This document shows positions 29,453 through 35,244 of a stretch of DNA of 64,000 nucleotides, one piece after another (the stretch's first letter is position 1; each line of letters starts with the position of its first letter). This DNA is from Acidobacteriota bacterium (GTDB lineage Bacteria > Acidobacteriota > UBA890 > WLXD01): assembly GCA_965248695.1 (NCBI GenBank), contig CBDFKD010000002.1, positions 2,208,001-2,272,000 of the forward strand. Direction: 5' to 3'. Under the pieces are notes generated by a model. That model searched no databases, had not been told where the DNA came from, and was given only the letters and a program-made list of their open reading frames with translations. A program made the translations under genes and the position numbers.

Positions 29453-29669
29453 GCACCGTCGGGACCGGGTCGTGGCCCCCCTGACTAAACGGATGGCACC
29501 TGAGGATCCGGCGCGCCGACAGCCACACCCCTCTGAGAGCACCGTGCTGCGCGACGCTCTGATGCGCGTACTCGGAGCAAGTCGGGTGGAACCGACAGTG
29601 CCCCCCGAGTGCCGACGACAGCGTCAGCTGGTAAAGCCGGATCAAACCGAGCAGGCTGCGCGTGATCAT
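29445..29669 (-). CDS. yidD: Membrane protein insertion efficiency factor
   Basis: [26 protein letters not shown]. Confidence 0.96.
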
Positions 29670-30019
29670 GTCGGCGACTCGGTTGCGCGGGCGGCGACCG
29701 CAATCAGCTCCGGGAGTAGATCGTCGGGGCTGCTGTGGGGCGCATCTTTCCGCGCCACGACGACATAGTCGTAGCCGGCGCGAAAACCGTCTCGGCGCCG
29801 GCGATACGCCTCCCGGAACACGCGCCTCGCACGGTTCCGCACCACGGCGTTGCCAATTCGGCGGGTGGCGGTGAAGCCGATACGTGGGTGCTCCAGACCG
29901 TTGGGGCGAGCGAACAAGACAAACCTCGGCGCTACGTGCTTCGTGCCCTCTGCGTACACCCGCTCGAACTCCGAGCGTTTGCGCAGGCGGTGGGCTCGCG
30001 GGAACCCTTCCGGTCGCAC
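29666..30019 (-). CDS. rnpA: Ribonuclease P protein component
   Basis: [24 protein letters not shown]. Confidence 0.95.
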
Positions 30020-30049
30020 AGCAGGGTATCGGCAGCGGCGGGGGTCAGA

Positions 30050-30187
30050 TCAGGACGGGGCCAACCGCTTGCGACCCTTGCGGCGGCGACGACGAATTAC
30101 GGCGCGCCCGGAACGCGTCCGCATCCGGAGCCTGAAACCATGTACTTTACGCCGGCGGCGGCGGTTGGGCTGAAAGGTGCGCTTCAT
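30050..30187 (-). CDS. rpmH: 50S ribosomal protein L34
   Basis: Manually translated (below the ORF cutoff): [45 protein letters not shown]. Confidence 0.97.
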
Positions 30188-30303
30188 GGTTTTCGGGGTT
30201 GCTCGCCGTGCACGACCCGCGAGAGAGCGGAAACCGTCCGTGCCGCGAAGGCGCCTGAGGGGGCAATCGACAGGTGGCCCCCTGTTTCGTACAGAACCAA
30301 ACG

Positions 30304-30332
30304 AGATTATCCGCTGGATACGAGACCGTCAA
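30304..30332 (-). promoter_or_regulatory. Putative sigma70 promoter of the rpmH operon
   Basis: Minus strand TTGACG-N17-TAATCT. Confidence 0.55.
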
Positions 30333-30449
30333 CTCCGCGTCGACTGCGGGTAGTGGGTCAGTTTCAAGTAATTGGAGCGGACGACGGAAAATACCGGTCA
30401 ATCAGTCGGTGAAAACAACGGACAACCGTGGCCACGGCTACTTTGCTTG

Positions 30450-30455
30450 TATAAT
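30450..30455 (+). promoter_or_regulatory. -10 box TATAAT preceding the structured non-coding region
   Basis: Perfect TATAAT ends 5 nt before the first hairpin (30461); no clear -35. Confidence 0.55.
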
Positions 30456-30460
30456 GCAAC

Positions 30461-30924
30461 GAGCCCGATCAGCTCGTAACTGATCAGGCTCGGGCGAAAG
30501 CATATGTGGGATTTTTTAGCCGGACTGGTGGGACCGGCGGGGGAGGCGTTTTGCGCCTCAGCTGTGGGAGAAGTGTATTCCCGACCGCACCGCGCCGTCA
30601 ACCGCACCGGCTTCGTCTATCTGAGAGGAGAAGTTTGGGGCGGGAACAGCTAGGCGACGTAGTGTAGCCAGGTAAGCACACTCCCCTGGAAAGGGGGTAT
30701 CGCGGGTTCAACTCCCGGCGTCGCCTCTCTTTATTTCCCGCCCCAATTCTCCGTCTCGGGTAAGCGCACTTCACCACTACTCTCAGAGTGTGGGGAATTC
30801 ACTAGCGCGACATCAACCGGATAATCATCCGGGCGTTGCGACGAGTAAATCCAATGCGCTCCAATGGTCTCGGTCCCCTACGTCGTCCGTGTGGGCGGCA
30901 CGACCCGTGCCATTGCGACACTCT
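30461..30924 (+). ncRNA. Candidate large structured ncRNA with embedded tRNA-like domain
   Basis: Hairpins 30461-30491, 30519-30538, 30543-30559; nested stems 30564-30584/30756-30777, 30627-30632/30747-30752, 30635-30646/30735-30746 (12 bp perfect); 3' domain 30785-30791/30918-30924, 30817-30832, 30862-30867/30910-30915; no credible ORF. Confidence 0.6.
30653..30726 (+). tRNA. Non-canonical tRNA-like element, anticodon GGA (nominal Ser), short variable arm, no encoded CCA
   Basis: Acceptor GGCGACG/CGTCGCC + T73; D-stem GTGT/GCAC with GG loop; anticodon stem CTCCC/GGGGG, loop CT-GGA-AA; V-loop TATC; T-arm GCGGG-TTCAACT-CCCGG (one G-G mismatch). Confidence 0.75.
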
Positions 30925-30968
30925 AATCCTACTATAAGACATGTGCCATGTGGCATGTAGGCGTTGTG

Positions 30969-31811
30969 CTACGCCGCTGCTTCGTGCCTCTCTAGCAACC
31001 GCACGATGTCTTCGATCTCGTAGATACGGTTCGCAACGCCGGCTTCCATCGCAGGCGTGACGCGCAGCGTCCGGTGAACGCGACAGAAGTTGTAGTACAT
31101 GAAGTGCAGCGCGACGGCGTGAGTCAAGTTCTCCACCTTCTTGCTGAATCCGTTGGTGAGTCGCGTGAAGCGGCGCATGCTCATTCGCATGGTTAGGTTC
31201 TGTCGCTCCACGTAACTTGTGCTCACCAACGCCCGGTCGGGGTGGCCGGTCACGAATCGTTTTCGAACCCCGAGGCACCTAGCGGGCGAATACCGCTTCT
31301 CGGCCTCGGGGTCAGATCCATACACCTTGTGCAGCATGGCGAAGTCAACGTCCGCCATGAAAGCGGCGGGCACCGCGTCGAGATACATCGTGTGCCCGTC
31401 CGTAGTGATCTGTGCGCGGTGGGCAAGTCGTGACGCTAAGTCGCTCATGAAGGCAAACGCGGTGTCTGCGTTGCGGTAGCCGAACCACCACGCCGGCACG
31501 ATCTTGGTGTCAGCACAGATGGATGTGAACGTCCAGACATCGCCGTATCCGAACTGGCCGCGCTTCTCCGGCGGAACGTTCTTTTCCTTCGCGTAGCAGA
31601 ACGCCCAAATCTCGTCGGCTTCCAAGCGGCGGCACGGAAGATCGCGCAGCACGCGGTCTTGGAAGTCGGAACACACCTGGCCGATCTCGGCCAGGAGCTT
31701 GGTGACCGTGTTCTTCGCCGCGCCGGTCATACGGCAAGTCGCACGCATGGAGTTGCCCTCGACCAAGGCCGCAACGATCTCTGTTCGCTTCTCTGTGCTC
31801 AACTGGTTCAT
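30969..31811 (-). CDS. IS1-family-like DDE transposase with N-terminal HTH
   Basis: MNQLSTEKR..LVEGNSMRATCRMTG (HTH); EADEIWAF, QITTDG, STSYVERQN (D,D,E); RRFTRLTNGFSKK. Confidence 0.92.
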   Translation of the reverse strand: MNQLSTEKRTEIVAALVEGNSMRATCRMTGAAKNTVTKLLAEIGQVCSDFQDRVLRDLPCRRLEADEIWAFCYAKEKNVPPEKRGQFGYGDVWTFTSICADTKIVPAWWFGYRNADTAFAFMSDLASRLAHRAQITTDGHTMYLDAVPAAFMADVDFAMLHKVYGSDPEAEKRYSPARCLGVRKRFVTGHPDRALVSTSYVERQNLTMRMSMRRFTRLTNGFSKKVENLTHAVALHFMYYNFCRVHRTLRVTPAMEAGVANRIYEIEDIVRLLERHEAAA

Positions 31812-31818
31812 AGGAGTA

Positions 31819-31847
31819 ATTGTACATGACCGGTCAAGCATAGACAA
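31819..31847 (-). promoter_or_regulatory. Transposase promoter with palindromic operator in the spacer (likely leaderless mRNA)
   Basis: Minus strand TTGTCT-N17-TACAAT-N7-ATG; spacer contains TGACCGGTCA palindrome. Confidence 0.65.
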
Positions 31848-31884
31848 GGTGAAACAGCGCCCCCTTCACGACGGCTTGGTCTAG

Positions 31885-32088
31885 CTAGGGCTTGATCACG
31901 CCTTGGTCGATTGCCCGTCTCACGCCTTCGCGTACAAGCGCGAGAGCAACCCCTGTGGGGGTCTTCTCGTACAGGTCCGTTTCCGCTAAACGCACGAGGT
32001 ATTGGTGCAGGCGCGGTGACGGAGAGAGGTTGATTTTCTGGGTTTGGACGGGAGTCCGACCGGGCTTTGAGGCTTTCTTCTTGGTCAT
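31885..32088 (-). CDS. Small ribbon-helix-helix-like DNA-binding protein (67 aa)
   Basis: Basic N-tail, alternating strand TQKINLSP, two amphipathic helices; long palindrome 12 bp upstream of the start; fold is inferred. Confidence 0.6.
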   Translation of the reverse strand: MTKKKASKPGRTPVQTQKINLSPSPRLHQYLVRLAETDLYEKTPTGVALALVREGVRRAIDQGVIKP

Positions 32089-32100
32089 GGGTACGCGGCG

Positions 32101-32133
32101 TCAATTACTAATTAGTAACTAATTAGTAATTGA
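32101..32133. promoter_or_regulatory. 33-bp palindrome (candidate operator)
   Basis: TCAATTACTAATTAGT-A-ACTAATTAGTAATTGA, perfect 16-bp arms containing two tandem ACTAATTAGT palindromes. Confidence 0.7.
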
Positions 32134-32167
32134 AGAAAGTCGAAAACCCATGTAAAGTCAACCGTTG

Positions 32168-32248
32168 AGAGCTACGTACAAGAGCGGTCGTCAGACCCCG
32201 GCCCAAGGACCGCCAGCGAGGTACACGCTGGTCTTAAGGCGTGGCTCT
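32168..32248 (-). ncRNA. Candidate DUF3800-associated structured RNA
   Basis: Starts 12 nt after the DUF3800-like stop, following an A-rich linker: closing stem AGAGCCACG/CGTAGCTCT, AAGA/TCTT, hairpins CCAGCG/CGCTGG and CGGTC/GACCG. Confidence 0.55.
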
Positions 32249-32260
32249 TATTTTGTTGTC

Positions 32261-33119
32261 TTACCCTTCGGGCGCTTGCCACATCACTCGATGTCGCAGC
32301 GGAATCTTGACGATTCCGAAGCCCTGAATCCGGCGGTCGTGTCCCTGCCGGAATTTGGGCAACAGACGATGAAGCCACGGGTACACCGTGAGTTCTCCGC
32401 TTGGGTCCTCCCAGGCGGCACCGTGGTCGCGGAACTGGCGGAGCACGTTGTAGGCAACTACGTCTGCGGCTTGAACCATGTGGCTGTGCGCGGAGTTAAC
32501 AAATCGCAGGCGTCCCGCCAAACACGAGAAGTCGAATCGCCTGTCGGGGCGAAGAAGGGTCGAACCGGTGCTCTTGAGCTGTTCGTGGTGTCGACTAAGG
32601 TTGTCTCGGTATGGGGTGCCCTTGGGAGTCTTCCCGCTCGTGTCGTCCATCGTGACGGAGAAACGTACCCCCGCGTATCCGCATTTCTAGCTCTGCCCGT
32701 TGCGCCAACGATTCATAAGCAACGGCATACGGGTACCATGTGTTATCCGGGTAGTCTTCCTGCATGTGGAGCTTGTCGACCACCGTGGCGATGAACTGCA
32801 CCCCCTCGAATGACTCAAGCTCGCGGTAGTAGTTCTCGACGAACTCGTCTAGCAACTCATCGTTGATCCCATAGGCGTCGAGGTACATCGCTTGTCGGGC
32901 ATTAGGAATCCGCAGCCAGTTCGACTTGATCTCAACGGCTTCATCGCCGAAGGTCGCTAGTTTCCGTGCACAGAGGCGATTGATTAGGCTGCTTGCGCGG
33001 CCTGTTTCGATGAGAATTGCTCCATAGACGAAGTGGCGGGAATTGTGGGCACCGTAACCCCCGTTCGGGGCGTACTCCTTCATCCCCGAGTCGTCTACAA
33101 AGAGAATATGGTCCGCCAT
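32261..33119 (-). pseudogene. DUF3800-like (RNase H-fold) protein, split by a +1 frameshift at about 32661-32663
   Basis: N-part MADHILFVDDSG...HFVYGAILI...EIKSNWLR; C-part MDD...SAHSHMVQAADVVAYNV (QxAD); removing one T from ACGTTTCTCC fuses the frames (..GGTFSVTMDD..). Confidence 0.8.
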
Positions 33120-33198
33120 TCCGCGCCACCCCTCGTGGGCGTACTCATCCGATCGAACGCCCTTGCCATCGCCCACCCCTTGATGGCAACCTAGCAAT

Positions 33199-33450
33199 AT
33201 GCCTAAACGGTCAAGCAGCTCTGAAGATCCTAACATCTTGGCCGCTCGCATCGTCGCCCAGACGACAGCCGAGCCTTTGTCCGACGAAGACGCTCGGAAG
33301 CTCGCCGCACGGCTGCTGGGCCGCCGGGGCGGCCTCAAAGGCGGACCCGCACGCGCCAAGAGCTTGTCTGCGAAGCGCCGGAGCGCGATAGCCAAGCAAG
33401 CCGCGAAGGCTCGCTGGAAGAAGCACAAACCCGCCGCCGGCGACGCCTGA
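33199..33450 (+). CDS. Small basic KGG-motif protein at the transposon end
   Basis: MPKRSS...DPNILAARIV...LGRRGGLKGGPARAKSLSAKRRSAIAKQAAKARW; ends 42 bp before the right TIR. Confidence 0.8.
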   Translation: MPKRSSSSEDPNILAARIVAQTTAEPLSDEDARKLAARLLGRRGGLKGGPARAKSLSAKRRSAIAKQAAKARWKKHKPAAGDA

Positions 33451-33670
33451 CTACTAGCAGCTCGATCCATCTTCTTGGATCGACGGTTTTTCAAACTGAC
33501 CCACTACCCGACTGCGGCCCCAGCGGGTCCGGTCGGGCGACACGGTGGCGCAGCGGCTGGACCACTCCCGATGGCGCACGTAGCCGCTAGGCGTGCCGGC
33601 GCCAACTCGCTACCGCGGTTTTCGTGTCTTGTTTGCCTTCTTTCGGTGCTTTTTTCCCCGCGGCTGGCCA

Positions 33671-33701
33671 TTGTACAGCGTCACTTTTTCTGTGCTATAT
33701 T
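33671..33701 (+). promoter_or_regulatory. Putative dnaA promoter
   Basis: Extended -10 TGcTATATT (33693-33701) with TTGTAC upstream. Confidence 0.45.
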
Positions 33702-33793
33702 CCCGCATCTTGCGGCGCGGACTTCAGCCTCCCAGGCCTACGCGCGCGAGGCTCTTGTAGCGTAAACGTCCATGATCGCTACGTTTTTAGTGT

Positions 33794-33825
33794 TTTTTCA
33801 CAGGTGTGGATAAGTCTGTGAAAAT
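33794..33825. promoter_or_regulatory. DnaA-box cluster upstream of dnaA
   Basis: Perfect TGTGGATAA at 33805-33813 flanked by degenerate TTTTTCACA (33794-33802) and TGTGAAAAT (33817-33825). Confidence 0.8.
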
Positions 33826-33891
33826 TCGCGGGGTGGGCAGCGCCGCCGTCCGCCGTCCGCGACACCGGTGCCTGGCGGACTCGAGGGCGGG

Positions 33892-35244
33892 ATGGACACC
33901 TGGGCGCGAATCCTCTCGCGTATTGAGAACAAGCTCGACCCACAGACCTTCGAGACCTGGTTCCGGCCCACGGCGCTTCTCCGCGAGCAAGACGGTGGGC
34001 TCGATGTCGCCGTTCCGAATGAGGTCTTCAGGGACTGGTTGACACAGAAATACGCCACGCTGATCCGGGAGTCCCTGGAGGAGTTCCCGGGAGCCCCGAC
34101 CGATATTCGCTTCTTCGTCGCCGGGCTGGAGGCTGGTTCGTCGCCCGGCGAACCATCGCCGGAGACCTCCAGCGACAATCGTCTAGGCACCGATCCCCGG
34201 CCTGCGGTAGCCAGCGACCGGCCTGCCACCCTGAATCCGAAATACACCTTTGAGTCTTTTGTGGTCGGCGCCTCGAACCAGTTTGCCAACGCCGCCGCCC
34301 GTGCTGTTGCCGAGCGCCCATCGTTGTCGTACAACCCGCTCTTCATCTATGGCGGTGTCGGGATGGGCAAGACTCATCTCATGCTTGCCATCGGGCATCA
34401 CATTCGGCGGGTGCAGCCGGAACTGAAGATCGTCTACCTGTCATCTGAACGCTTCATGAACGAGCTCATCAACTCGATCCGATACGACCGGACGCACGAG
34501 TTTCGCGTTCGCTATCGCAATATTGACGTCTTGCTCATGGACGACATCCAGTTCCTGGCGGGAAAGGAGCGCACCCAGGAGGAGTTTTTCCACACGTTCA
34601 ACGCCCTCCATGAGGAACAGCGCCAGATCGTCGTTACGAGCGACGCGCCGCCGAAGGAGATTCCCACCCTCGAGGAGCGCCTGCGCTCGCGATTCGAGTG
34701 GGGCCTCCTTGCAGACATCCAGCCTCCGGACCTAGAGACCAAGATCGCCATTCTGAAGAAGAAGGCTGAGGCCGAGTCTCCTGCCCTGTTAATCGCCGAT
34801 GACGTGCTGCTTTACGTCGCAACACACAGCAAATCGAATATCCGCGAGCTCGAGGGAGCCCTCATCCGACTCCTGGCTTTTGCGTCCCTTACTGGCGAGG
34901 AGATTACCGTCGAGCTGGCCCGGCGCGTGTTGAAAGACACCCTCAAGACGGAACCGCGCGTCATCACCATCGAGAGCATTCAACAGCGGGTTTCGGAATA
35001 CTACGGGCTGCGCGCAGGGGAGCTAAACTCGCGCAGCAATGCCCGGCGCGTAACCAGGCCTAGACAGGTCGCCATGTACCTGTCGAAGAAGCTGACGCAC
35101 CATTCCTACCCTGCGATCGGCCAAGCTTTCGGGGGAAAACACCACAGCACGGTTATCCATTCAGTGCGCAAGGTTCAAGCCGACATGTCCGGCGACGAGG
35201 ACCTCGAACGCGGGGTCGCCGGGCTGCTTGACTCGTTTCAGTAG
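33892..35244 (+). CDS. dnaA: Chromosomal replication initiator
   Basis: LNPKYTFESFV, YNPLFIYGGVGMGKTHL, DDIQFL, FGGKHHSTVIH. Confidence 0.99.
   Translation: MDTWARILSRIENKLDPQTFETWFRPTALLREQDGGLDVAVPNEVFRDWLTQKYATLIRESLEEFPGAPTDIRFFVAGLEAGSSPGEPSPETSSDNRLGTDPRPAVASDRPATLNPKYTFESFVVGASNQFANAAARAVAERPSLSYNPLFIYGGVGMGKTHLMLAIGHHIRRVQPELKIVYLSSERFMNELINSIRYDRTHEFRVRYRNIDVLLMDDIQFLAGKERTQEEFFHTFNALHEEQRQIVVTSDAPPKEIPTLEERLRSRFEWGLLADIQPPDLETKIAILKKKAEAESPALLIADDVLLYVATHSKSNIRELEGALIRLLAFASLTGEEITVELARRVLKDTLKTEPRVITIESIQQRVSEYYGLRAGELNSRSNARRVTRPRQVAMYLSKKLTHHSYPAIGQAFGGKHHSTVIHSVRKVQADMSGDEDLERGVAGLLDSFQ

What the first reader, a model, noticed from the sequence alone, without database searches (positions are those of the whole stretch)
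30450..30961. Promoter-preceded ~470-nt multi-domain ncRNA candidate inside the transposon
Seen in sequence: a perfect TATAAT is followed 5 nt later by a strong hairpin (GAGCCcGATCAG/CTGATCaGGCTC) and two more hairpins. A long nested rod follows (30564-30584/30756-30777; GGAGAA/TTCTCC; 12-bp TTGGGGCGGGAA/TTCCCGCCCCAA), capped by a cloverleaf. A separate 3' domain is closed by AGAGTGT/ACACTCT and contains CCGGAT/ATCCGG, CAATGG/CCATTG and GTCGT/ACGAC stems. There is no credible ORF, and it converges on the transposase stop at 30969. Inference: a large structured RNA. It is loosely reminiscent of large ncRNAs associated with tRNAs, such as GOLLD, but I cannot assign it to any family.
Basis: partly seen in the sequence, partly recalled or inferred. 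Interest (0 to 1): 0.85.

Follow-up and report, generated by a model that had tools for sequence, protein, structure and literature searches.

The report
Odd tRNA gene inside a transposon
The supposed large structured RNA is mainly an unusual transfer-RNA gene wrapped in a long hairpin and carried by a jumping gene, one of a little-studied class of mismatched tRNAs that ride on mobile DNA in soil bacteria.

Summary
The "cloverleaf" is a real tRNA-type gene at 30653-30726 (+): Rfam tRNA 52.6 bits against a cut-off of 29, also called by ARAGORN. It is irregular. It has the serine anticodon GGA but a short variable arm, and discriminator U73. A 27-bp helix (30618-30646 / 30735-30762) encloses it. 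This flank pairing has z -6.9 and is the only outlier among the genome's 59 tRNA calls. The rest of the proposed ~470-nt RNA is weak. The outer rod and the 3'-domain closing stem are not in the full-length MFE, segment z-scores are -0.3 to -2.1, and the first hairpin folds better on the minus strand. No homologue of the flanks was found, so covariation could not be tested. The region lies in a 3,162-bp IS1-family transposon (conserved inverted repeats, 6-bp target duplication) in an acidobacterium. The site between rpmH and dnaA is empty in 4 of 4 same-genus genomes. Across 160 related elements, 36 carry tRNA-like genes with mismatched body and anticodon, and some of these are also helix-enclosed. 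Irregular acidobacterial tRNAs near toxin-antitoxin and transposable elements are already in print (Mukai 2017). Verdict: a new variant of a known kind, not a GOLLD-like RNA.

The parts
30342..30347 (.). Target-site duplication GACTGC, left copy.
   Evidence: Read. The same hexamer follows the element at 33510-33515. The empty site in same-genus genome G004 carries it once.
30348..30367 (+). Terminal inverted repeat at the transposase-proximal end. It contains the family core GGTAGTGGGTCAGTTT.
   Evidence: 2 matches against 0.01 expected. The core is conserved at both ends of related elements across phyla.
30422..30441 (.). Terminator-like hairpin called on both strands. A T-run follows it on the minus strand.
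   Evidence: This is a consensus scan only: 3 sites found against 2.1 expected.
30450..30455 (+). Lone TATAAT hexamer, a possible -10 box. No -35 box accompanies it.
30460..30492 (.). Strong hairpin. It has 12 pairs with a C-A mismatch on the + strand and is a perfect 15-pair hairpin on the - strand, where the mismatch becomes G-U.
   Evidence: the segment has z -2.8 on + and -5.9 on -..
30618..30646 (+). 5' arm of the 27-bp helix that encloses the tRNA. It is built of 9 + 6 + 12 pairs with a 2-nt bulge at 30633-30634.
   Evidence: pair probabilities 0.96-0.98, with two G-U pairs in the outer 9 bp; flank duplex -48.4 kcal/mol, z -6.9, reached by 0 of 200 shuffles.
30653..30726 (+). Irregular tRNA gene. 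It has anticodon GGA, a short variable arm, discriminator U at 30726 and no encoded CCA. Pair 49-65 of the T-stem is a G-G mismatch, and an alternative 8/4 pairing is possible.
   Evidence: Rfam RF00005 at 52.6 bits. ARAGORN. Sequence reading and comparison with the host tRNAs.
30735..30762 (+). 3' arm of the enclosing helix, with a 1-nt bulge at 30753.
30785..30925 (.). Local hairpins are present, but the domain as a whole is not beyond chance.
   Evidence: z -2.1 on + and -1.5 on -. The closing stem is absent from the full-length MFE.
30969..31847 (-). IS1-family DDE transposase. The ORF is 292 aa; homologues align from residue 13, so the likely start is at 31811. It converges on the tRNA.
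   Evidence: NCBIfam IS1 at 1.7e-13, which is below that model's cut-off. Pfam DDE_Tnp_IS1, weak. Relatives are named 'IS1 family transposase' by their sources.
32101..32133 (.). Perfect 16+1+16 palindrome upstream of the transposase gene. It looks like an operator.
   Evidence: inverted repeat I5.
32261..33119 (-). DUF3800 cargo gene, split into two frames: 33119-32595 and 32650-32261.
   Evidence: Pfam DUF3800 at 3.7e-4. The second frame reads like the C-terminal half of the same protein. Calling it a frameshift is my own reading.
33199..33450 (+). Small basic ORF (83 aa) that is conserved across the IS family. Here it is on the strand opposite to the transposase, unlike the usual layout.
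   Evidence: tblastn gave 58 matched stretches in the family loci.
33490..33509 (-). Terminal inverted repeat at the far end. It matches the other arm at 19 of 20 positions.
33510..33515 (.). Target-site duplication GACTGC, right copy.

Best explanation
Shown:
- The core of the finding is a cargo gene for an irregular tRNA (30653-30726, + strand).
- It is carried by a 3,162-bp IS1-family transposon (30348-33509).
- That transposon recently inserted between rpmH and dnaA of an acidobacterium.
- The gene keeps a full cloverleaf.
- It combines the serine anticodon GGA with a short-arm (class I) body and discriminator U73.
- A 27-bp helix formed by its flanks encloses it.

Inferred mechanism, to which I commit:
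1. The + strand is transcribed as a precursor, perhaps from the TATAAT at 30450.
2. The long helix acts as a processing or stabilising stalk, cut by a double-strand RNase as in rRNA operons, or opened.
3. RNase P and 3' trimming with CCA addition then release a ~74-nt tRNA.
4. The tRNA lacks the long arm that seryl-tRNA synthetase needs, so it would not carry serine.
5. If it is charged at all (its acceptor stem and U73 are nearest the host's tRNA-Cys), it would misread UCC/UCU codons.

The other hairpins in 30450-30961 are not parts of one large RNA. They are local elements: terminator-like structures that fit the transposase strand at least as well as the + strand.

My confidence that this is an IS-borne tRNA gene with an enclosing helix is about 0.85. 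My confidence in the decoding role is about 0.35. The figure given below is for the whole statement.
For: tRNA identity:
- Rfam 52.6 bits against a cut-off of 29, and ARAGORN.
- I read U8, A14, G18-G19, U33, A37 and the T-loop TTCAA in the sequence.
- The D and T arms resemble the host tRNA-Asp at 73% identity, while the acceptor stem differs by paired changes.
- Twenty class-I tRNA-likes were aligned: 17 from related elements, this one, and the other two GGA genes. They keep the cloverleaf with changes on both sides at 19 of 21 pairs.

Irregularity:
- It is 75 nt with a 4-5-nt variable region, whereas the host's own tRNA-Ser(GGA) is 90 nt.
- The acceptor GGCGACG/CGTCGCC plus U73 and the loop CUGGAAA compare with the host tRNA-Cys GGCGGCG/CGCCGCC plus U73 and loop CUGCAAA.
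- Two other, unrelated class-I bodies carry the same loop CUGGAAA and U73, each within about 250 nt of an IS1-family transposase gene. One is at G000 C2:5220443, identical to C1:1975; the other is in G002.

Enclosing helix:
- Pair probabilities are 0.96-0.98.
- The flank duplex has z -6.9 and is the only outlier of the 59 tRNA calls in the genome.
- A perfect run of 8 bp or more starting within 10 nt of both tRNA ends occurs in 4 of 36 tRNA-likes inside related elements. It occurs in 0 of 27 other tRNAs in the same loci, and in 1 of 59 in G000, which is this one. The arm sequences differ from locus to locus.
- Two G-U pairs in the outer 9 bp exist only on the + strand.

Transposon:
- Inverted repeats and a 6-bp duplication are present.
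- The site is empty in 4 of 4 same-genus genomes.
- The repeat core is conserved across the family.
- 40 tRNA-likes occur in 36 of 160 related loci. Of these, 31 lie inside 104 repeat-delimited elements, which is 13.6 per 100 kb against about 1 per 100 kb in G000.

Literature:
- Irregular tRNAs near toxin-antitoxin genes and transposable elements in Acidobacteria, including one with U73 and a GCU anticodon, are described in PMC5389517 (section 16 read in full).
- The host's DnaA relatives are named Acidobacteria or Acidobacteriota.
Against: - There are no expression data, and none could be obtained.
- The TATAAT has no -35 box and the promoter scan did not call it.
- No CCA is encoded, and T-stem pair 49-65 is a G-G mismatch.
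- No homologue of this particular tRNA or of its flanks was found in 400 genomes of the phylum, in 160 family loci or in viral contigs. Selection on this copy is therefore inferred only from its intact fold.
- The helix folds almost as well on the minus strand, z -7.4, so it could be a DNA-level or transposase-strand feature.
- A helix this close to the tRNA ends could hinder RNase P rather than help processing. This rests on my general knowledge and was not tested.
- The layout, with the tRNA downstream of and convergent with the transposase gene, occurs in 0 of the 160 related loci. There, 26 loci have the tRNA-like no more than 360 nt upstream on the same strand.
- Amino-acid identity is open. 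In this host U73 is shared by tRNA-Cys, tRNA-Gly and tRNA-Thr. The anticodon is one base away from both GCA and GGU. Only one cysteinyl-tRNA synthetase gene was found.
- Mukai et al. found that some irregular tRNAs were charged but not used in translation, and that others were not charged at all.
Confidence: 0.5

Rival explanations
1. The tRNA-shaped RNA is made but is not used in translation. It acts as a mimic: a decoy or RNA antidote for a tRNA-targeting toxin carried by such elements, or a cis-regulator or insulator of transposase expression. The enclosing helix keeps it embedded in a longer transcript.
For: [quoted passage not shown]
- Related elements carry toxin-antitoxin-like cargo. 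This is my reading of the ORF translations and was not scanned against any library.
- In 4 related loci the helix abuts the tRNA ends (0-4 nt away), continuing the acceptor stem. That argues against ordinary maturation.
- In 26 of 160 loci the tRNA-like sits 68-354 nt upstream of the transposase gene on the same strand, which suggests co-transcription.
Against: - This copy keeps every feature needed for decoding: a 7-nt loop, U33, A37 and the T-loop.
- The anticodon loop and U73 are identical in three otherwise different bodies. That fits selection on decoding or charging as well as on protein recognition.
- Here 5-7 unpaired nucleotides separate the helix from the tRNA ends, which leaves room for RNase P.
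- The only cargo protein gene, DUF3800, looks frameshifted and matches no defence or phage family.
Confidence: 0.28
2. One reading: one promoter-driven RNA of ~470 nt with several domains (5' hairpins, a long rod capped by a cloverleaf, and a 3' domain), working as a large non-coding RNA of a new family.
For: - The whole region folds with z -6.8.
- There is no credible ORF and no translated similarity to 160 related loci.
- A rare TATAAT lies at its start.
- The full-length MFE pairs 30506-30513 with 30925-32 at probability 0.95.
Against: - The z-score is carried by the tRNA plus its helix and by one hairpin that is better on the other strand. The remaining segments give z -0.3 to -2.1.
- The outer rod and the 3' closing stem are not in the full-length MFE.
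- The minus strand folds as well, z -6.5.
- No Rfam family other than tRNA matches at E <= 5.
- No homologue was found, so there is no covariation evidence.
Confidence: 0.07
3. A captured tRNA copy that is now decaying, with no function. The palindromes are DNA-level features, or terminators for the transposase strand.
For: - The G-G mismatch in the T-stem, and no encoded CCA.
- It is single-copy with no homologue.
- The neighbouring DUF3800 gene looks broken.
- The first hairpin and a terminator-like hairpin fit the minus strand.
- The family inserts next to host tRNA genes: 11 of 122 elements have one 48-96 nt beyond the transposase-proximal repeat. That offers a route for capture.
Against: - All four stems are otherwise intact, and the acceptor stem differs from its nearest relatives by paired changes.
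- The anticodon-body mismatch recurs, with the same loop and the same discriminator, in two other unrelated bodies next to IS1-family transposases.
- A 27-bp helix centred exactly on the tRNA is not what decay would produce.
Confidence: 0.12

Closest known systems
Irregular tRNAs and allo-tRNAs of Acidobacteria and soil metagenomes (Mukai et al., Nucleic Acids Res 2017, PMC5389517).
   Same: - Same host phylum.
- The anticodon does not fit the body.
- Located next to mobile-element and toxin-antitoxin-type cargo.
- That paper also describes an irregular tRNA with U73 and a serine-box anticodon (GCU), which E. coli GlyRS and ThrRS did not charge.
- Related elements here carry class-II tRNAs with UAU, UUA, CCC or UCC anticodons, which look like their allo-tRNAs.
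   Different: - This one has a short variable arm and anticodon GGA.
- It is not the 8/4 or 9/3 long-arm serine-type body that defines allo-tRNA.
- The paper's text, as far as I read it (section 16 and passages found by search), mentions transposable elements only in passing.
- It does not describe an IS1-family element with conserved repeats, nor an enclosing helix.
- I could not see its Figure 4A or its supplements.
IS1-family insertion sequences with passenger genes ('transporter IS'). The ISfinder subgroup name ISMhu11 is recalled from memory and was not found in the library.
   Same: - A DDE transposase that sources name as IS1 family.
- Terminal inverted repeats beginning GGTAGTG.
- A short target duplication.
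- Cargo between the ends, with element sizes of 2.1-5.4 kb.
   Different: - The NCBIfam IS1 model scores below its cut-off.
- tRNA-like genes as frequent cargo, and insertion just upstream of host tRNA genes, were not found in print by my searches.
Processing stalks of bacterial rRNA operons: long leader-trailer helices cut by RNase III. This is established knowledge, recalled.
   Same: A helix of more than 20 bp, formed by sequences on both sides of a stable RNA, encloses the mature molecule.
   Different: It encloses a single tRNA and not an rRNA. Cleavage was not tested and is unknown.
GOLLD, ROOL and other large bacterial non-coding RNAs found near tRNAs.
   Same: A structured, ORF-free region on mobile DNA with a tRNA.
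   Different: - No Rfam match to any such family at E <= 5.
- Much smaller.
- The significance is confined to the tRNA and its stalk.
tRNA genes carried by phages, plasmids and integrative elements.
   Same: A tRNA gene as cargo of a mobile element.
   Different: - Those are usually canonical tRNAs that match host codon use.
- This one is on a simple DDE insertion sequence.
- Its anticodon does not fit its body.

Membership tests
tRNA (Rfam RF00005) | Covariance-model score at or above the gathering threshold. | tested here: met
   52.6 bits against 29, E 1.9e-8, covering model positions 1-71 of 71. ARAGORN also calls it.
tRNA (Rfam RF00005) | Conserved tertiary and loop nucleotides: U8, A14, G18-G19, U33, a purine at 37, and the T-loop TTCRA. 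| tested here: met
   Read from the sequence and from the Rfam alignment. One mismatch is present, G49-G65.
Canonical bacterial tRNA-Ser | Long variable arm (class II body) and G73. | tested here: not met
   The gene is 75 nt with a 4-5-nt variable region and U73. The host's own tRNA-Ser genes are 90-97 nt and are followed by GCC.
tRNA that is active in translation | Aminoacylation and use on the ribosome. | not testable with these tools
   No RNA data were available. Amino-acid identity cannot be read from the sequence, because U73 is shared by the host's tRNA-Cys, tRNA-Gly and tRNA-Thr.
allo-tRNA (Mukai 2017) | A 12-bp acceptor branch in 8/4 or 9/3 form, with a long variable arm and serine-type identity. 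| tested here: not met
   There is no long arm. An 8/4 reading (a U8-G pair plus a 4-bp T-stem) is what ViennaRNA predicts, but that is only an alternative to the 7/5 form with one mismatch.
IS1-family insertion sequence | Transposase matching the IS1 models. | tested here: inconclusive
   NCBIfam IS1 scores 50.9 bits against a cut-off of 100, and Pfam DDE_Tnp_IS1 21.9 against 24.1. Relatives at 64-77% identity are named IS1 family by NCBI and JGI.
IS1-family insertion sequence | Terminal inverted repeats, a target duplication, and an empty site in relatives. | tested here: met
   - The repeats match at 19 of 20 positions, and there is a 6-bp GACTGC duplication.
- The site is empty in 4 of 4 same-genus genomes.
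GOLLD, ROOL and other large non-coding RNAs | A match to the family's covariance model. | tested here: not met
   cmscan over 29500-33900 at E <= 5 returned only tRNA and one chance-level sRNA match.
RNase III-type processing stalk | A helix of 20 bp or more, formed by leader and trailer, around the mature RNA. | tested here: met
   27 bp with two small bulges at probability 0.96-0.98, and z -6.9.
RNase III-type processing stalk | Cleavage by a double-strand-specific RNase. | not testable with these tools
   This needs an in-vitro or in-vivo assay.

The most novel reading that the evidence does not exclude
A cross-phylum clade of IS1-family transposons acts as a vehicle for 'caged', anticodon-swapped tRNAs. 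Here that would be a Cys- or Thr-like body reading the serine codons UCC/UCU. Elsewhere it would be class-II bodies with Ile, Gly or stop anticodons. Each is released from an enclosing helix by a dedicated processing step. They would either reprogramme decoding in the host or serve as decoys for tRNA-targeting toxins. The same elements would home to sites 48-96 nt upstream of host tRNA genes.
Probability: 0.2. Interest if true: 0.8.

Novelty: new variant of a known kind. Interest (0 to 1): 0.5.

Why it matters
tRNAs whose anticodon does not fit their body can change how codons are read. Finding them as regular cargo of a widespread insertion-sequence family would make such tRNAs mobile between phyla: 36 of 160 elements carry one, about 14 times the background tRNA density. 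It would also give a simple genomic handle, the conserved 16-nt repeat core, for collecting them.

The recurrent enclosing helix points to an unusual maturation or control step that can be tested directly. The polar insertion upstream of host tRNA genes, if confirmed, would be a bacterial parallel to tRNA-gene targeting by eukaryotic retroelements.

For this window alone the result is more sober. The proposed large RNA shrinks to a tRNA gene with a stalk.

Tried and rejected
Large-RNA families. Rfam at gathering thresholds over the whole window, and at E <= 5 over 29500-33900, gave only tRNA.

Hidden protein genes. Six small ORFs in the region had no Pfam hit at E <= 0.1. tblastx against 160 related loci gave only one marginal pair.

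Homologues for a covariation test of the flanks. None was found in any of these:
- blastn against all fetched loci.
- Whole-genome search of 400 genomes of the phylum, where only the host tRNA-Asp genes matched, at 72-75%.
- An exact 31-nt search of viral contigs, with 0 hits.
- Related loci from genome and metagenome contigs, which reached only 56-68% transposase identity and shared no flank.

A repeated (MITE-like) origin for the helix arms. The arms are unique in the genome.

A second cysteinyl-tRNA synthetase that could charge a Cys-like tRNA with a changed anticodon. Only one clear CysRS gene was found.

Avoidance of UCC/UCU codons in the element's own genes. The counts are too small to say.

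Defence or phage families for the cargo. There were no PADLOC hits for 4 proteins. For 3 proteins there was only one weak PHROG hit of unknown function, to the small ORF.

Sister elements with and without the tRNA, to test whether tRNA plus helix is a discrete cassette. No informative pair was found.

Expression. No RNA holder was listed: the 4 runs that hold the stretch come from one study and none is on record as RNA.

Other limits:
- The supplements and figures of PMC5389517 could not be seen. Its Figure 4A and Figures S5-S7 may already show this kind of locus.
- Unpublished genomes G047 and G071 appeared in result tables. No claim here rests on them.

Papers:
- PMC5389517: I saw the abstract, section 16 in full, and passages found by term.
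- PMC7609411: passages found by term only.
- All other titles: search listings only.
- The statement that the IS1-family link, the enclosing helix and the tRNA-gene targeting are not in print rests only on searches, and on those passages.
- Recalled and not checked: the ISfinder subgroup name, the usual IS1 duplication length, the identity elements of CysRS, ThrRS and GlyRS, MiaA's A36-A37-A38 rule, and RNase III and RNase P behaviour.
Full report
What is at the coordinates.

The 512 nt fold with z -6.8 on the + strand, but also z -6.5 on the - strand.

Folding the pieces separately shows where the signal lies:
- The tRNA with its flanking stem (30620-30760) has z -7.2.
- The 5' hairpin segment has z -2.8 on + and -5.9 on -. 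The C-A mismatch of the first hairpin becomes a G-U pair on the other strand, giving a perfect 15-pair hairpin there.
- 30561-30652 has z -0.9 and 30728-30790 has z -0.3.
- The 3' domain has z -2.1 on + and -1.5 on -.

It has 9 + 6 + 12 = 27 pairs, at 30618-30646 with 30735-30762. The TATAAT is a rare hexamer here (5 in the window against 1.9 expected). It has no -35 partner and the promoter scan did not report it.

The cloverleaf is a tRNA, and an odd one.

Rfam's tRNA model matches 30653-30726 (+) at 52.6 bits, against a gathering score of 29. ARAGORN calls a 75-nt 'tRNA-Ser(gga)'. Nothing else in Rfam matches 29500-33900, even at E <= 5.

The gene has a 7-bp acceptor stem, a 7-nt anticodon loop CUGGAAA, the usual D-loop GG and the T-loop TTCAA. 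It has only a 4-5-nt variable region and discriminator U. The host's own serine tRNAs are 90-97 nt with long arms.
- Its D and T arms are most like the host tRNA-Asp, at 73% identity overall.
- Its acceptor stem, discriminator and anticodon loop are closest to the host tRNA-Cys. These read GGCGACG/CGTCGCC-U with CUGGAAA, against GGCGGCG/CGCCGCC-U with CUGCAAA.
- U73 is also found in this host's tRNA-Gly and tRNA-Thr, and GGA is one base away from both GCA and GGU, so the amino-acid identity cannot be read off.
- T-stem pair 49-65 is G-G. ViennaRNA instead predicts an 8-bp acceptor stem and a 4-bp T-stem.

Two other class-I tRNAs have quite different bodies but the same loop CUGGAAA and U73. 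Both lie in this genus, and each is next to an IS1-family transposase gene.
- One is at G000 C2:5220443, identical to C1:1975. It lies 228 nt upstream of the transposase gene on the same strand.
- The other is in G002. It lies between the small ORF and the transposase gene, on the opposite strand.
- Among the 26 genomes of the order, only G000 and G002 have such genes.

The setting is a recently inserted IS1-family transposon.

The window holds the replication-origin neighbourhood of a bacterium: yidC, jag, rnpA, rpmH, then dnaA, dnaN and gyrB. The DnaA relatives are named Acidobacteria or Acidobacteriota. Between rpmH and dnaA lies a 3,162-bp element (30348-33509).
- Its terminal inverted repeats match at 19 of 20 positions, and it is flanked by a 6-bp duplication, GACTGC.
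- In 4 of 4 same-genus genomes the two flanks are adjacent, and G004 has a single GACTGC at the site.
- The element carries a transposase whose relatives are named IS1 family.
- It also carries a DUF3800 gene that appears split between two frames.
- It carries a small basic ORF that is conserved throughout the family.
- The remaining 620 nt, between the transposase stop and the near repeat, contain the finding.

The family context.

The transposase has thousands of relatives across phyla. I fetched 80 loci from genome contigs and 80 from metagenome contigs, at 56-68% identity.
- The 16-nt repeat core GGTAGTGGGTCAGTTT bounds elements of about 2.1-5.4 kb. Both ends were found in 104 of the 160 loci.
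- The usual layout is: repeat, small ORF, cargo, transposase, sometimes more cargo, repeat.
- ARAGORN finds 40 tRNA-like genes in 36 of the 160 loci. Of these, 31 lie inside the 104 delimited elements. That is 13.6 per 100 kb of non-transposase DNA, against about 1 per 100 kb in G000.
- In 26 loci the tRNA-like lies 68-354 nt upstream of the transposase gene on the same strand. None of the 160 shows the convergent, downstream layout seen here.
- Many are mismatched. Bodies of 86-96 nt with long arms carry UAU, UUA (a stop anticodon), CCC or UCC. Short bodies carry GCU or ACU. One has an 8-nt loop.
- Twenty class-I examples were aligned: 17 from these loci, this one, and the other two GGA genes. 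They keep the cloverleaf with double changes at 19 of 21 pairs.

This is the class that Mukai et al. described in Acidobacteria and soil metagenomes as allo-tRNAs and 'irregular tRNAs'. They found them near toxin-antitoxin genes and 'possibly associated with transposable elements'. Their examples include one with U73 and a GCU anticodon.

The enclosing helix recurs.

The duplex between the 40-nt flanks of this tRNA is -48.4 kcal/mol, z -6.9. It is the only outlier among the genome's 59 ARAGORN calls, and its arms occur nowhere else in the genome.

A perfect Watson-Crick run of 8 bp or more, starting within 10 nt of both ends, is distributed as follows:
- 4 of 36 tRNA-likes inside related elements, with runs of 13, 9, 8 and 8 bp.
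- 0 of 27 other tRNAs in the same loci.
- 1 of 59 tRNA calls in G000, which is this one, with a 12-bp run.

The arm sequences are unrelated from locus to locus. That is what selection on pairing, as opposed to a shared protein-binding site, would give. In those four loci the helix abuts the tRNA (0-4 nt away). Here 5-7 unpaired nucleotides lie on each side.

What it most likely is and does.

Shown: this is an intact, irregular tRNA gene with an enclosing 27-bp helix, carried as cargo by a recently transposed IS1-family element.

Inferred: it is transcribed on the + strand. The helix serves as a processing or stabilising stalk. The released tRNA, lacking the serine arm, is either charged with another amino acid and misreads UCC/UCU, or is not used in translation and acts as a mimic. 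I lean slightly towards the first, because three unrelated bodies share the same anticodon loop and discriminator. The evidence does not separate the two.

The 5' hairpins and the terminator-like hairpin at 30422-30441 fit the transposase strand at least as well as the + strand. The 3' domain is not beyond chance. I therefore do not accept a single ~470-nt RNA. I could not exclude it either, because no RNA data exist (see Tried and rejected) and no homologue of the flanks was found.

Novelty and score.

Three things appear new, as far as five literature searches and the passages I read can show:
- The anticodon GGA on a Cys- or Thr-like short body.
- The recurrent enclosing helix.
- The firm link to one IS1-family clade with a conserved repeat core.

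I rate it a new variant of a known kind, with interest 0.5.

Noticed in passing
Loci L021, L039, L043, L065, L068, L072, L105, L112, L130, L162 and L167, just beyond the transposase-proximal repeat.: In 11 of 122 related elements with flank available, an ordinary-looking host tRNA gene starts 48-96 nt beyond the repeat, in the same orientation as the transposase. At the other end there is 1 in 101, and that one is probably a mis-assigned repeat. L072 and L162 may be the same locus. This suggests polar insertion just upstream of tRNA genes. In the window, the same end of the element faces rpmH, 160 nt away.
   Followed up: partly
G000 outside the window: C2:5217564, C2:5218723, C2:1586595, C2:1401818, C2:4678307 and C2:5559422.: The genome holds further odd tRNA calls. 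There are two identical 87-nt long-arm tRNAs with the alanine anticodon UGC, and a 72-nt 'Arg(cct)'. There is also a 75-nt short-arm 'Ser(cga)' about 800 nt from a transposase fragment, and there are two tRNA-Sec genes. Three of the odd ones lie within 3 kb of each other beside IS1-family fragments.
   Followed up: no
window 32261-33119 (-): The DUF3800 cargo gene seems to be split into two overlapping frames, 33119-32595 and 32650-32261. This could be a frameshift or a sequencing error.
   Followed up: partly
window 32101-32133: A perfect 33-nt palindrome (16+1+16, AT-rich) lies about 290 nt upstream of the likely transposase start (about 255 nt from the ORF's first codon). It looks like an operator. 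The 98-aa ORF that starts just beside it has GC3 of 0.41 and a junk-like translation.
   Followed up: no
L004 (G007:C2:516935-520170), compared with window 31872-32118, 33188-33216 and 33252-33364.: A genome of another genus in the same family holds pieces that are 97-100% identical to the interior of this element, lying side by side without the DUF3800 region. No terminal repeat was found in that locus. This suggests recent exchange of a deletion derivative.
   Followed up: no
window 33199-33450 (+): The family's small conserved basic ORF normally sits next to the far repeat, on the same strand as the transposase. Here it is on the opposite strand and reads outward. L062 shows another inverted arrangement.
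   Followed up: partly
G000 genome-wide, for example C2:4157212.: The motif GTGTGGTGGGTCTGGTT occurs about 25 times in the genome and is probably the end of another insertion sequence. One copy underlies a dubious 98-nt 'tRNA-Pro(ggg)' call by ARAGORN.
   Followed up: no
L003 (G011:C1:562961-566714): The closest related element by DNA (73% over the transposase gene, 3,108 bp between its repeats) carries different cargo where the tRNA region lies here. The cargo is a 273-aa ORF, which I read as OMP-decarboxylase-like, and a 105-aa ORF. It has no tRNA.
   Followed up: partly
G004:C2:975-6907: Three transposase-gene matches are spaced exactly 2,555 bp apart, so a related element is tandemly repeated.
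   Followed up: no
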